64,000 bases of DNA, from NCBI RefSeq assembly GCF_035594765.1, contig NC_085846.1, forward strand, positions 18,587,190-18,651,189, in the 5' to 3' direction. Of the stretch, positions 145 to 63,507 are shown piece after piece. The DNA is from Anolis carolinensis (taxonomy: Eukaryota). The notes under the pieces are model-generated. The model saw only the letters and a program-made list of their open reading frames with translations. It was not told where the DNA came from and made no database searches. Both the position numbers and the translations under genes were made by a program. Each line of letters begins with the position of its first letter. Position 1 is the first letter of the stretch.

Positions 145-3100
145 ATGACTGACCTCCAATCAAATATGGAAAGTTTTGACCCTAGCACTATCAGAATTCT
201 GAAACTAGTAACTCTTGAGGGGGTTCCTTTATTTGATGACACTGTGGAGCAATGGGAGACAATATGGAACTTCAAAGCTAAACCTGATGATCTTCTTATT
301 TGCACGTATCCCAAAGCAGGTAAATGTGGTCAGGGGAGATGGAGGGAAGAAAGACTATGGAGTGATACCAAGAGGGGTGGAGATGTTTAGCTACAGACAT
401 TAGGGCTACTAGGTGAATTATGGGGTCTCCATGCCTCTTCTCCCTACATCTGTACTTCTGCAGGGACCACATGGATGCAGGAAATTGTTGATATGATCCG
501 ACATGGAGGAGACACAGAAAAATGTGCTCGGGCCCCTATCTATGAACGAATACCCTACATAGAGCTATGTGAGCTAAAACCTTTTCCTTCAGGTGAGCAA
601 GGAGAAATTATCTTTCAGGTTGACTGTTAAAGGTTTCTTGTCAGGAACCTGAAAGTTTCCATCTGGCATCACAGGTATTGAACAAGCGGAAGCACTGCCC
701 TCTCCACGCACACTCAAAAGCCATCTCCCTGTTCATCTCCTGCCACCATCCTTCTTCGAACAAAATTGCAAGGTGAGAAAAAACAGAGCACTGTTGAATA
801 GAGTATAAGATACTGATTTGGGAATTTTCTAGTTACTTATTGATAAAAGAAAAACTGATCCTAAATATGTTCCACTAATTTGATCCAAGGGTTTTGTTTG
901 TTGGTTGTTCGCAATGGGAAAATTCTCCCTGGGAATATGAAATATGGTAGGAAAATTATTAAGTCAGTTGATAAGAACTTTGATAACAATACAGTGATCA
1001 GTAGGAACAATCACTAATTTGCCAAAATTAAATTGTATCACATTAATCCTACCTTTTAAAATCAATTTATCATCTTATTAGACTCTGGAAAGGTGGAATA
1101 CATAGTCAAAGCGTTGAAAAACTCACCTATTATATATATTTGTCAGCAATCCAGTTAGGTGTTGGCCATGTGACACTATTACCATTTGGTGGATGTATAG
1201 CCTGTTCAAAAATGATGATCATCAAGGGATAATCCTGTAATAAAAGACCTGGAGCAGCACTAAATTGATACATCCTAAAGGCAAACCAGTATTGAATTTC
1301 AGATTGACCCCCTAGTTTTGTTGGGCAAGTGGGCTTATTAACAAACGACCTGCCCCATAAATGCACAGTAGAATAACTTATTAGCAGCGGTGTGACCCTG
1401 CACCAGAAGCCAAAGGTGATAAAAAGAACAAAAACACACAGACCAATGTTATCTCTTCCTTAGAAGCTTTTATTTATAGCAAAATAATATGGTTGCACTA
1501 TTTACAAAAACAAGGTTTCCATAACACAAATAAAGTTCTTTATACTTCCTTATTTACTTCCATGCTGGACTTCTTTCTCATGCAGATAAACAGCTTTGCT
1601 CTCACAGAGCCTTCTCTAACACTGAACTTACACTGGAGCTTCACACACGAGGCCTTCAATCTGGAGCTTCTCTCACATTGAAGCCTTCTCACTCTCCTCA
1701 GGATGACACTAGCTTTGACCCTTTCAGTGCTTGACTCACATTTTTGTAATTAAAAATACCTAGTTAATTTTTAATATTTCTGACAAGTTTTGACTGCCAA
1801 CTACTTTAGAGGTGGGAAGGTATCCTTAGTGTAGTTGTACATTCCAAAGGCAGAATTAAACTAAAAAGATTTGGGATGGGTTTCTGCACCACAAAAAAAA
1901 AGAGCAATTGAAATGTTTGTAAACCTTCTATTCAAAATTCACCCTACTCTTTCCTTATGATTTTATATTAATGGCCAAAGTCCTTCATTTTTAAAGATGG
2001 TTTCTCAACATGCTAGAGGTAGCAGCTAAAGCAGGCTTATCTATTTTTTCTTTGTTTTGCTAATAATTCATGCCCAGTTAGTGATTTTGGTGGCAGCTAC
2101 AGTTCAGTTTGCCAGTTGTCATCAGGCACATGTGACTACAGAAGGATCAACTAAAATCCCACTGTTTCTCACCTTGAGCTTTATTTTTACACTGCAGATG
2201 GACTGTTGCAATCTGACACTGATGGCTTGTTTTTCTCCAATCCTTTTTTGCTCTCCCCACAATGCTGATATTTTAAAAATTAAGCTAAACAGAGGATGAG
2301 GAGAAAAAGGGGAGTAGGCATGCATTAAAAACTCTTCAGAAAACAAAACTTCATTGCCAGGGTCTTTATTAACTTGAGTAAACCTCTATGAGGCTGAGGG
2401 AATTATATGTAAATATGAAAATAGCCAAATTAGAATTAAACAATGTAGAGAAAATGTGAGGGAGGAAAAGAATCCTGAATGGTAAAATAGTGGAGAGTGA
2501 AAAGTTTGGAGCAATGAATTCTAGTTTGTCTTTTGCTGGATGCTGCATTTCTACAGATCATTTATGTGGCCAGGAATCCCAAAGACCTTGCAGTTTCCTA
2601 TTTCCACTTCATCCGCATGGACAAGACAATGGTGCAACCAGAAAACTGGGATGAGTTCGTTGAGACATTCATTGCTGGGACAGGTGAGTAACAGAATCAA
2701 ATATTTGAGATTCCCACATTATACTTTATAGATCATTTAGTTCAAGAGAATGGGCCAAGGTTCTTGGCCATAGTTTTTCAATCTTTGAAGAAGAAAATGT
2801 TGACAATGGTAAGGGTAGGCCCAGGGATCATGCCATACTATGAGGGATTCTGGAAGTTGTAGTTTGTCATATGAAAAATAATCTAGCAAGGCTCTGCCAA
2901 TCCCACAAAGAGGATGACAGCTACATGATTTTCCCACTGTAACAATTGTTCTCAAAACTCTGGAGGTCTACATGAGGAGGATGGTAGAGGATGAACTGAA
3001 ACCCATTATTGCTCTCTCTCTCTCTCATAAGTTGCTTATGGCTCTTGGTTTGATCATGTGAAAGACTGGTGGAAGGCTAAGGACCATCACCAAGTTCTGT

Positions 3101-61568: not shown

Positions 61569-63507
61569 ATGGATTTCCAACCAGGGATGGAAAGTTTGGA
61601 CCTCAACTCAACCAAGGACTCACTGCTGGTGGATGTTGAAGGAATTCTTTACCCCAAGGAAACTGCGAAGTATTGGGAGGAGATACAGAACCTTAAAGCT
61701 CGGCCTGATGATGTTCTTATTTGCACTTACCCCAAAGCAGGTAAATGTAGTCACAGGTAAAAAGGAGTGGAAAGGGGGTGAGGAGGAAGGTCTGAAAGAC
61801 ACCAAAACTGAATGTGGTATGGTTAAAGACCCACTGGATGAATTATATGCTCTTCACACGTCTTTTCCCTATACATTCCCATACCAGGAACTACTTGGAT
61901 GCAGGAAATTGTGGATATGATCCAGCACGGAGGAGACCCAGAGAAATGTGCTCGGGCCCCGATCTATCAACGTAATCCCTTCATAGAGTTGAGCTTTCCC
62001 ATTTCCATCCCTACAAGTGAGGAGGAATTACTCTTTCACAGTGATGATATATAGATGTATGCATTTCTTGGCAACAACTTTAATGTTTTCTTCTGGTGTC
62101 ACAGGCATTGAAAAAATAGACGCAATGCCCTCTCCACGCACATTCAAAACCCATTTCCCAGTTCAGCACCTACCTCCTTCCTTCTGGGAACAGAACTGCA
62201 AGGTGAGAAAAATGGGGTGATGTTTTTGGGGAATCAGTTTGTTATGTGCCAAGGTCATTATATTTAATGACATAGTAAAATGGCATTCCTTATATAAATT
62301 GGTAGACAGATCAAATCAGTGCTCAAGAGAGCCTGAAATGACAAGAGGCTATTGTAGAATACAATACATATCAAGATAGTGTTCAGCATGGAATCTGGGG
62401 ATCTATAAATTAAGGAGATATTTAAAGAACTTTATCAGATTTGTTATAGTGCCTTGCCAATCTACAAATTCCAGAATAGAATAATTTCCCAGTGTGAAAG
62501 AAGGCTGATGGAGTGCGAGGGACCCAGAGTTCAGACATCTGAGTTCTTTTCTCTCTTTGTCTGTTTTCAGATTATTTATGTGGCCAGGAATGCCAAAGAC
62601 AACATGGTTTCCTATTTCCACTTCGTCAACATGACCAGCTTACTTCCGGACAGTGGCAGCTGGGATGAGTTTATGGAGAATTTCATTGCTGGGAAGGGTG
62701 AGTGAAGGAAGTTGGACATTGGGATGGAAATAATTAAATGAACAAACCTTCACTGAAATTTCTATTCTTTTGGAGCAAAACCAGATGCCATCTGTATTGT
62801 AACATACAGATGGCTCTGCTCTGTTCTAATGCCTCCCCCCTGCCCCATTAATTAAAGTAACAGGCTCTCTGGATGTAAACCATCCACATGGTTCCTATTT
62901 ATTGAATCTCAATATATTGATTACACTGTCTGTTGTGACAAGCAAGTCAGAAGAAAGAGATTATTTGGGATTATTAAAGTGATAATGGGATGCATTTTGA
63001 ATTAAGAGGATGTGCTTGGATCTGTAAAGGGTATATATGGGTAGTGTAAAATAATTGGGTGTTTTACTTTGGGTTTCTAGAGTGTCCACCATATTTCTGG
63101 AAAAGAGAGACCCCATGTCAAAATCAATACATACTTCAGCTCAAAAGAGAAAACTAGAATCCCCTGACTGATTCTTTGGGGTTTTGAGGGGGTTAGTGTG
63201 GCCACTAACCCCTTAGAGCTCCTGGGTTTTGTGCTGTAAACCAACAACTTTTCCAAGTTCTGGAAGAGCATTGGCACAATCATATGAAAAAAAGGAAGCT
63301 GTGGGGTCCTGAAGGAATTTCCTTCCAACTCTGGATAATTACAAGATATACAATAGAATAGGGCAAAGTGTGAGTTGAATGTTACTGTCTGCTTCTTGTG
63401 TTCTTTCTGCAGTTTGTTGGGGCTCTTGGTTTAATCACGTTCAAGGCTGGTGGAAGGCTAAGGACCATCATCCGATTCTATATCTGTTTTATGAAGACAT
63501 TAAAGAG
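61569..63507 (+). CDS. SULT1C: Cytosolic sulfotransferase, SULT1C-like, gene 6 (partial; coding exons 6-7 beyond window)
   Basis: Exons 61569-61740, 61888-62016, 62105-62202, 62571-62697, 63413-63507; in frame. Motifs [25 protein letters not shown]. Confidence 0.9.

What the first reader, a model, noticed from the sequence alone, without database searches (positions are those of the whole stretch)
145..63507. Lineage-expanded SULT1C array with divergence focused on acceptor-pocket loops
Seen: the scaffold [26 protein letters not shown] is invariant in genes 2-6, but the next residues vary: [10 protein letters not shown] (g2), [10 protein letters not shown] (g3/4), [10 protein letters not shown] (g5), [10 protein letters not shown] (g6), [10 protein letters not shown] (g1). 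The exon-4 loop reads YFHNMINII (g2), HFHNMTSII (g3-5), HFVNMTSLL (g6), HFIRMDKTM (g1). The cap loop reads [13 protein letters not shown] (g2), [13 protein letters not shown] (g3-5), [14 protein letters not shown] (g1). Established: these three loops form the acceptor site of cytosolic SULTs. No complete copy has a stop or frameshift. Inference: diversifying selection is building a detoxification or signal-conjugation repertoire in a lizard.
Basis: partly seen in the sequence, partly recalled or inferred. Interest (0 to 1): 0.7.

Follow-up and report, generated by a model that had tools for sequence, protein, structure and literature searches.

The report
Anole sulfotransferases missing a key glutamate
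An anole lizard carries five young, intact tandem copies of one sulfate-adding detox enzyme gene; four have lost an acidic residue kept in every non-anole relative compared and their substrate-entry loop changes fast, so they likely handle different compounds, though the evidence that selection drove this is only moderate.

Summary
All quoted peptides are in the sequence and all six genes are intact. Database names give Anolis carolinensis SULT1C2-like.

The array of 15 intact genes is old. Only g2-g6 (one Sceloporus orthologue) and a downstream triplet are anole-specific. g4 is a near-identical g5/g3 chimera, so g2-g6 give four usable sequences.

Divergence is enriched at known specificity residues (omega 2.5 vs 0.63, p=0.008; triplet 2.1, p=0.013). 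The signal is mainly loop 1. M7/M8 is not significant (p=0.23), and the signal weakens with an intron yardstick or a local silent rate. The cap loop shows none, and exon 6 has been homogenised by gene conversion.

The equivalent of SULT1A1 Glu83 is Gly in g2-g5 and in one A. sagrei copy, but Glu/Asp in 117 of 117 others. g6 and the other sagrei copy keep Glu and share a unique Phe.

Verdict: known birth-and-death evolution, like primate SULT1A, with a Gly83 variant that my literature searches did not find.

The parts
145..6145 (+). g1, old SULT1C paralogue; exons 145-319, 464-592, 675-772, 2557-2683, 3032-3126, 4045-4225, 6033-6145; GC donor on intron 5
   Evidence: identical to P0026; 1:1 orthologues in A. 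sagrei and Sceloporus
13761..19471 (+). g2, young copy, Gly83 type; exons 13761-13932, 14068-14196, 14285-14382, 15224-15350, 16794-16888, 17814-17991, 19359-19471; most eroded copy (5 of 84 highly conserved positions changed)
   Evidence: identical to P0030
27471..33009 (+). g3, young copy, Gly83 type, Lys106-equivalent is Arg; exons 27471-27642, 27823-27951, 28040-28137, 28541-28667, 29789-29883, 31680-31857, 32897-33009
   Evidence: identical to P0017
37996..43530 (+). g4, chimera: 5' flank identical to g5's, body identical to g3's; exons 37996-38170, 38351-38479, 38568-38665, 39069-39195, 40317-40411, 42201-42378, 43418-43530
   Evidence: identical to P0016; exon-1 junction bridged by a contig of run X4
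48517..55080 (+). g5, young copy, Gly83 type; exons 48517-48691, 48853-48981, 49068-49165, 49564-49690, 50846-50940, 53749-53926, 54968-55080
   Evidence: identical to P0015
61569..64000 (+). g6, young copy, Glu83 type with Phe at the SULT1A1-105 equivalent; exons 61569-61740, 61888-62016, 62105-62202, 62571-62697, 63413-63507; exons 6-7 lie beyond the window (window-frame 65379-65556, 67029-67141)
27527..38069 (.). First copy of a 10.5-kb tandem unit
   Evidence: 1 substitution and 2 homopolymer-length differences against the second copy
38055..48590 (.). Second copy of the 10.5-kb tandem unit; against this assembly's g3 and g5 the switch point lies in 38055-38069
   Evidence: the true crossover interval may be wider because other g5 alleles seem to exist
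14166..14168 (+). Gly codon at the SULT1A1 Glu83 equivalent in g2 (also 27921 in g3, 38449 in g4, 48951 in g5)
61986..61988 (+). Glu codon at the SULT1A1 Glu83 equivalent, retained in g6
28081..28083 (+). Arg codon at the SULT1A1 Lys106 equivalent in g3 (also 38609 in g4)
   Evidence: Lys in 115 of 117 others
62143..62145 (+). Phe codon at the SULT1A1 Leu105 equivalent in g6, shared only with A. sagrei P0004/P0027
   Evidence: Phe in 0 of 117 others
31680..31857 (+). Exon 6 (cap loop), 178 nt in g2-g6 against 181 nt in the other paralogues (one codon lost); no silent difference between g3/g5 and g6

Best explanation
Genes g2-g6 are intact anole-specific tandem copies of one iguanian SULT1C gene, likely made by unequal crossing-over and partly homogenised by gene conversion, and they likely encode working PAPS-dependent sulfotransferases whose substrate range is shifting, mainly through the entry (gating) loop. 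Inferred sequence of events: (1) In the anole stem the single gene was remodelled, losing one cap codon and gaining Asn at the 144 equivalent and His at g4 position 123. (2) An early duplication, probably before the carolinensis/sagrei split, gave a Gly83 type (g2-g5, sagrei P0022) and a Glu83/Phe105 type (g6, sagrei P0004). (3) The Gly83 type multiplied in carolinensis, most recently as the g5/g3 chimera g4. Constraint is relaxed but present outside the loops, and modest positive selection likely acts on loop 1 and a few loop-2 residues. Gly83 would loosen the base of the gating loop and alter acceptor preference or turnover rather than abolish catalysis. The substrates are most likely dietary or endogenous phenolics, by analogy with SULT1 enzymes; this is untested.
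For: Shown: intact ORFs. PAPS and catalytic residues equivalent to K48, H108, R130, S138 and R257 are kept in 7 of 7 clade members. The g4 model has mean pLDDT 88.8 and TM about 0.90 to SULT1A1 structures. The clade has support 1.0 and its sister is the single Sceloporus protein P0032. Purifying selection persists: core omega 0.42, p=0.0006 against 1, and the scaffold has 0 replacements against about 12 expected. Literature-defined specificity residues give omega 2.47 (p=0.008) and, independently, 2.07 (p=0.013) in the d2-d4 triplet (Fisher p=0.001). Loop omega rises from 0.38 on background branches to 0.86 on the stem and 1.32 inside the clade. Three type-specific sites (SULT1A1 83, 84, 105) are shared across the two Anolis species, against 0 sites with the opposite pairing and 6 species-specific sites. 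Sites 84 and 105 also changed on the primate SULT1A3 branch (PMC555591 Table 7). Contigs matching the Gly83 and Arg106 codons without other differences there occur in runs X2, X4, X8 and X2, X7, X8 respectively, so these are not assembly base errors.
Against: Site models are not significant on the best tree, and wrong trees give p<0.002, which shows how recombination could fake a signal. With a local silent rate the loop omega falls to 1.3-1.65, p=0.2-0.35. With introns as yardstick the excess is 28 vs 17.2 changes (p=0.010), but only 23 vs 17.2 (p=0.11) if double changes in a codon count once. Ten residue sets were tried and six, so p=0.008 is borderline after correction. The 15 ligand-contact residues give omega 1.31, p=0.27. 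A passage in PMC6969939 says SULT1A1 activity depends on Glu83, so Gly83 copies could be weak or dead. A protein tree groups the two sagrei copies together (0.96), and the cross-species type signal rests on three sites in predicted proteins. No expression or activity data were obtained.
Confidence: 0.58

Rival explanations
1. Relaxed birth-and-death drift. The loops are simply tolerant surface segments evolving near neutrally in redundant copies kept for dosage, and Gly83 copies are weakened enzymes.
For: Whole-gene omega of 0.5-0.9 for the five pairs among g2, g3, g5, g6 other than g5-g6 included, against 0.22-0.29 between old paralogues; non-significant site models; N-terminus almost as fast as loop 1; g2 has lost 5 of 84 highly conserved residues; a partial remnant gene lies in the same array.
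Against: The same literature-defined residues exceed omega 1 in two independent clades; Gly83 and Phe105, each absent from 117 others, are kept in two species; the core is still under purifying selection.
Confidence: 0.27
2. Gly83 copies are catalytically dead or nearly so and work as ligand sinks or as regulators that heterodimerise with active SULTs, by analogy with the atypical SULT4A1.
For: Glu83 is stated to be needed for SULT1A1 activity (PMC6969939 passage); the position is acidic in 117 of 117 others; g3 and g4 also replace the Lys106 equivalent; the KxxxTVxxxE dimer motif is kept in g2-g6 (motif from PMC4492763).
Against: PAPS-binding and catalytic residues are fully kept, whereas SULT4A1 has a degraded PAPS site (PMC1847840 passage). 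I could not read the primary Glu83 mutagenesis paper.
Confidence: 0.08
3. One reading: diversifying selection acts on all three acceptor loops of every copy in a lineage-specific array.
Against: That set was chosen after seeing the variation; loop 2 gives 0.99 and the cap 0.97 (0.27 in the triplet); cap exon conversion, P=0.002; most genes of the array have orthologues in Sceloporus.
Confidence: 0.07
4. Side question, scored on its own: g4 is an assembly artefact (false tandem duplication), so the real young copy number is four.
For: Only 1 substitution and 2 homopolymer differences in 10.5 kb. An older database entry, P0002, has the g4-type exon 1 on a g5 body, so the junction may simply be a g5 allele.
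Against: A contig of run X4 bridges the g4 exon-1 junction with 0 differences. In run X2 both g3-type and g5-type 5' ends meet one g3-type body contig (contigs show presence only, and records are filtered). Very recent unequal crossover gives exactly this anatomy.
Confidence: 0.25

Closest known systems
Human SULT1C2, SULT1C4 and SULT1C3 (PDB 3bfx, 2ad1/2gwh, 2reo/2h8k)
   Same: Best PDB sequence matches to g4 (E 1e-115 to 1e-103); same fold, PAPS motifs, catalytic His and dimer motif; tandem cluster.
   Different: About 55% identity. Human chains keep Glu at the 83 equivalent, Lys at 106 and the full-length cap. Anole g2-g5 have Gly, g3/g4 have Arg, and all of g2-g6 lack one cap residue.
Hominoid SULT1A1-1A4 expansion (Bradley and Benner 2005, PMC555591)
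   Same: Recent duplications, a near-identical newest copy with the same assembly doubt, and adaptive change at sites 84-89, 105 and 143-148.
   Different: There the substrate shift (dopamine) is proven and branch-site tests are significant. Here substrates are unknown, support is moderate, gene conversion is evident, and site 83 changes, which is not among the 18 SULT1A3-branch changes.
Squamate SULT1C2-like arrays (RefSeq-named proteins of Sceloporus, geckos, skinks, snakes)
   Same: Multi-gene arrays are general: among the proteins I aligned, 7 from Sceloporus, 7 from Paroedura, 6 from Euleptes and 5 from Tiliqua (lower bounds from the best 120 of 1517 hits).
   Different: None carries Gly83, Phe105, Asn144 or the one-codon cap deletion (0 of 117).

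Membership tests
Cytosolic sulfotransferase (SULT, PF00685) | 5'-PSB loop (T/S-Y-P-K-x-G-T-T) with the Lys48 equivalent | tested here: met
   TYPKAGTT in g1 and g3-g6, SYPKAGST in g2; Lys kept in 7 of 7 clade members
Cytosolic sulfotransferase (SULT, PF00685) | 3'-phosphate site Arg130 and Ser138, and the RKG motif | tested here: met
Cytosolic sulfotransferase (SULT, PF00685) | Catalytic His108 | tested here: met
   His in all six genes
Cytosolic sulfotransferase (SULT, PF00685) | SULT fold | tested here: met
   g4 model pLDDT 88.8, TM 0.87-0.91 to ligand-bound SULT1 structures
Cytosolic sulfotransferase (SULT, PF00685) | KxxxTVxxxE dimerisation motif | tested here: met
   [10 protein letters not shown] or [20 protein letters not shown] in g6; motif from PMC4492763
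Cytosolic sulfotransferase (SULT, PF00685) | PAPS-dependent sulfonation of an acceptor | not testable with these tools
   needs enzyme assay
SULT1C subfamily | Closest sequence relatives are SULT1C rather than SULT1A, 1B or 1E | tested here: met
   top four PDB hits are human SULT1C; the tree used only SULT1C-named database proteins, so monophyly against other SULT1 subfamilies was not tested by tree
Canonical SULT1 active site (a conserved feature, not a family-defining one) | Acidic residue at 83 and Lys at 106 | tested here: not met
   Gly83 in g2-g5 and Arg106 in g3/g4; met in g1 and g6
Positively selected detoxification gene family (SULT1A3-like) | Significant site-model or a-priori-site omega above 1 | tested here: inconclusive
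   a-priori set significant in two clades; site models, local-dS and single-event counts not significant
Positively selected detoxification gene family (SULT1A3-like) | Paralogues differ in substrate preference | not testable with these tools
   needs recombinant substrate panels

The most novel reading that the evidence does not exclude
Anoles evolved a distinct sulfotransferase type that works without the otherwise invariant Glu83, with a shortened cap and a rebuilt entry loop, and selection has kept it beside a Glu83/Phe105 sister across species while gene conversion homogenised the neighbouring sequence. It would sulfonate a new class of acceptor (such as arthropod defence compounds or skin and signal molecules) or act as a non-catalytic partner.
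Probability: 0.25. Interest if true: 0.6.

Novelty: new variant of a known kind. Interest (0 to 1): 0.36.

Why it matters
The genes are already annotated, and duplication with loop change is a known pattern in detox enzymes, so the array itself is ordinary. What is usable is a natural experiment: closely related, intact enzymes (84-98% identical) that differ at a residue thought necessary for SULT1 catalysis. They can test what Glu83 does and how SULT specificity is rewired. They also point to a possible chemical-ecology trait and a likely copy-number variant in a well-studied adaptive radiation.

Tried and rejected
Site models in my own implementation (not codeml): not significant for four young copies on the best tree; two wrong trees gave p<0.002 and were rejected as artefacts. 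Over 13 paralogues the result was equivocal.

Selection on the cap loop, on loop 2 alone, on full loops 1-3 (omega 1.30, p=0.17) and on 15 contact residues: not supported.

Invariant scaffold due to gene conversion: rejected, because it carries 4 silent differences and no replacements. Pseudogenisation of the young copies: rejected as a general reading. Whole array lineage-specific: rejected.

Expression: no RNA holder listed. The two runs guessed as RNA covered introns and showed no splice joints, so there is no evidence either way. Copy number of the 10.5-kb unit across animals was not obtained and stays open. A loop-region search found no Gly83-like protein outside Anolis, but had only 25 candidates.

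Literature: searches listed no paper on anole or squamate SULT1C evolution (one search listed 25 of 60; one search listed 25 of 323, none containing 'Anolis'). The primary Glu83 mutagenesis paper, recalled from memory, is not held. The bioRxiv detox-evolution preprint did not analyse SULTs in the passages seen. No complex prediction was run.
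Full report
WHAT IS THERE. A motif scan and exon-by-exon modelling show six + strand genes with the seven-exon layout of cytosolic sulfotransferases. All have canonical junctions (one GC donor in g1) and no internal stop; g6 is completed just beyond the window. 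Five models are identical to database proteins named sulfotransferase 1C2 or 1C2-like of Anolis carolinensis. The window sits inside a larger array. Over 264 kb there are 15 intact + strand SULT1C-type genes, one partial remnant and two minus-strand SULT1 genes.

HOW OLD IS IT. I aligned my 15 models with 109 database proteins, drawn from the best 120 of 1517 hits and cluster members, leaving out fused, most partial and duplicate A. carolinensis entries. g1, u1, u3, d1 and d5 each group with a Sceloporus protein, and all but d1 with an A. sagrei protein, so the array is old. Other squamates also hold several copies. g2-g6 and two A. sagrei proteins form one clade (support 1.0) whose sister is a single Sceloporus protein, P0032. 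A second clade with only Anolis members, d2-d4, lies downstream. 'Lineage-expanded' therefore holds for g2-g6 but not for g1 or the array. The clade shares a one-codon cap deletion (7 of 7, against 0 of 117 others with that length), Asn at the SULT1A1 144 equivalent and His at g4 position 123 (each 0 of 117).

HOW THE COPIES AROSE. Window 27527-38069 and 38055-48590 differ by one substitution and two homopolymer lengths. g4 has g5's upstream DNA (5059 of 5060 bases) and g3's body, which is the anatomy of an unequal crossover (inference). A contig from run X4 bridges the exon-1 junction without differences, and in run X2 both 5' types meet one g3-type body. An older entry (P0002) has this exon 1 on a g5 body, so a g5 allele or a false duplication is not excluded. 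I dropped g4 from all tree-based selection tests. Gene conversion is visible: exon 6 of g3/g5 and g6 has no silent difference over about 49 silent sites while their introns differ by 13% (P=0.002), and exon 1 of g3 groups with g6 at 2 of 3 informative sites.

MAPPING TO THE POCKET. PDB alignments fix the register with SULT1A1. A fold of g4 (107-row alignment) gave pLDDT 88.8 and TM about 0.90 to SULT1A1. Pocket residues are from PMC3206062 (passages) and the 84-89/143-148/247 set from PMC1847840 (passages). The 'invariant scaffold' itself includes the Phe76 pocket equivalent.

SELECTION, IN FAVOUR (own codon-model code, not codeml). Whole-gene omega among g2, g3, g5 and g6 is 0.51-0.89, against 0.22-0.29 between old paralogues. 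The core is still purified (0.42, p=0.0006). The literature set gives omega 2.47 vs 0.63 (p=0.008 for omega above 1), reached by 80 of 20000 random block sets. The same set gives 2.07 vs 0.32 (p=0.013) in d2-d4. Loop omega is 0.38 on background branches, 0.86 on the stem and 1.32 within the clade.

SELECTION, AGAINST. M7/M8 gives p=0.23 and M1a/M2a p=0.16 on the best tree, while wrong trees give p<0.002. Over 13 paralogues (g4, u5 and residues 1-20 dropped) M7/M8 gives p=0.035, but M8a/M8 p=0.095 and M1a/M2a p=0.42. With a local silent rate p is 0.2-0.35. With introns as yardstick there are 28 changes against 17.2 expected over both clades (p=0.010), or 23 (p=0.11) if double changes count once (changes counted by hand from the codons printed). 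Loop 1 carries the signal (2.57 and 1.96); loop 2 gives 0.99 and 1.31, the cap 0.97 and 0.27. The N-terminus gives 1.8. Several sets were tested, so the evidence is moderate: likely modest positive selection on the entry loop over relaxed constraint.

THE ODD FEATURE. The equivalent of SULT1A1 Glu83 is Gly in g2-g5 and in A. sagrei P0022, but Glu or Asp in 117 of 117 other sequences and Glu in the human SULT1C and SULT1A chains shown. PMC6969939 states in passing that SULT1A1 activity depends on Glu83; I could not read the primary study. g6 and A. sagrei P0004 keep Glu and share Phe at the 105 equivalent, seen in 0 of 117 others. Across the two species, three sites sort by copy type (83, 84, 105), none by the opposite pairing and six by species, two of which lie 4 and 10 codons from type sites. 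The simplest reading is an old duplication into two types whose pocket differences survived conversion. It rests on three sites in predicted proteins, the protein tree groups the sagrei pair together, and intron support for g6 branching first is weak (p=0.07). g3 and g4 also carry Arg at the Lys106 equivalent (Lys in 115 of 117), a residue that hydrogen-bonds the acceptor hydroxyl in SULT1A1 (PMC3206062). Matching contigs in independent runs show that both codons are real.

MECHANISM. Shown: intact genes, a complete PAPS site and catalytic His, an anole-specific clade, near-identical tandem units, and purifying selection on the core. Inferred: unequal crossover and conversion, active enzymes, shifted acceptor range through loop 1 and Gly83, and modest positive selection. 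Untested: substrates, tissues and copy-number polymorphism.

COMPARISON AND NOVELTY. It works like the hominoid SULT1A expansion (PMC555591: abstract, passages and section 8 read), with overlap at sites 84, 86, 105, 143, 146 and 148. The genes are members of the SULT family and, by sequence, of SULT1C. Seven paper searches listed nothing on anole or squamate SULT1C evolution or on a natural Gly83 enzyme; subscription journals are not covered, and supplements were not consulted. PMC4492763, PMC9481576 and bioRxiv 10.1101/2025.05.31.657154 were seen as passages only. The scan's index had no note near this place or on these genes. Verdict: observation confirmed, interpretation partly supported, a new variant of a known kind, interest 0.36.

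Noticed in passing
Own genome C6, window-frame 76448-95280 (L011-L013): A second SULT1C triplet (d2-d4) grouping only with A. sagrei proteins shows the same excess of change at specificity residues (omega 2.07).
   Followed up: partly
Own genome C6, window-frame -41647 to -41045 (L005): Partial SULT1C remnant: only exons 1-3 found, no in-frame acceptor found for exon 2, and a degraded PAPS loop.
   Followed up: partly
window 3127-3128: g1 intron 5 starts with GC rather than GT, unlike the other 14 paralogues.
   Followed up: no
window 11506-12044 and 51265-52187 (minus strand): Two retrotransposon-like fragments, 94.6% alike over 516 bases; they look CR1-like (name recalled from motif, not tested). 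Other LINE-like frames lie at 6866-7510, 9576-10007 and 55943-56374.
   Followed up: no
Own genome C1:96.24-96.44 Mb: Another long run of sulfotransferase exon matches, probably a second multi-gene SULT cluster.
   Followed up: no
A. sagrei proteins P0023, P0025, P0028: A. sagrei appears to have duplicated the u2 orthologue, which is single in this genome.
   Followed up: no
Own genome C6, window-frame 153122-172130 (L018-L020): Two minus-strand SULT1 genes whose exons match SULT1A/1D structures best.
   Followed up: no
window 57876-58036 and 58766-58994: Short GC-rich tandem repeats of period 86 and 88 between g5 and g6.
   Followed up: no
Database entries P0018-P0020, P0003, P0021: Several public gene models are chimeric or truncated across the tandem copies (exons from g3, g5 and g6 mixed), so public counts for this locus are unreliable.
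   Followed up: partly
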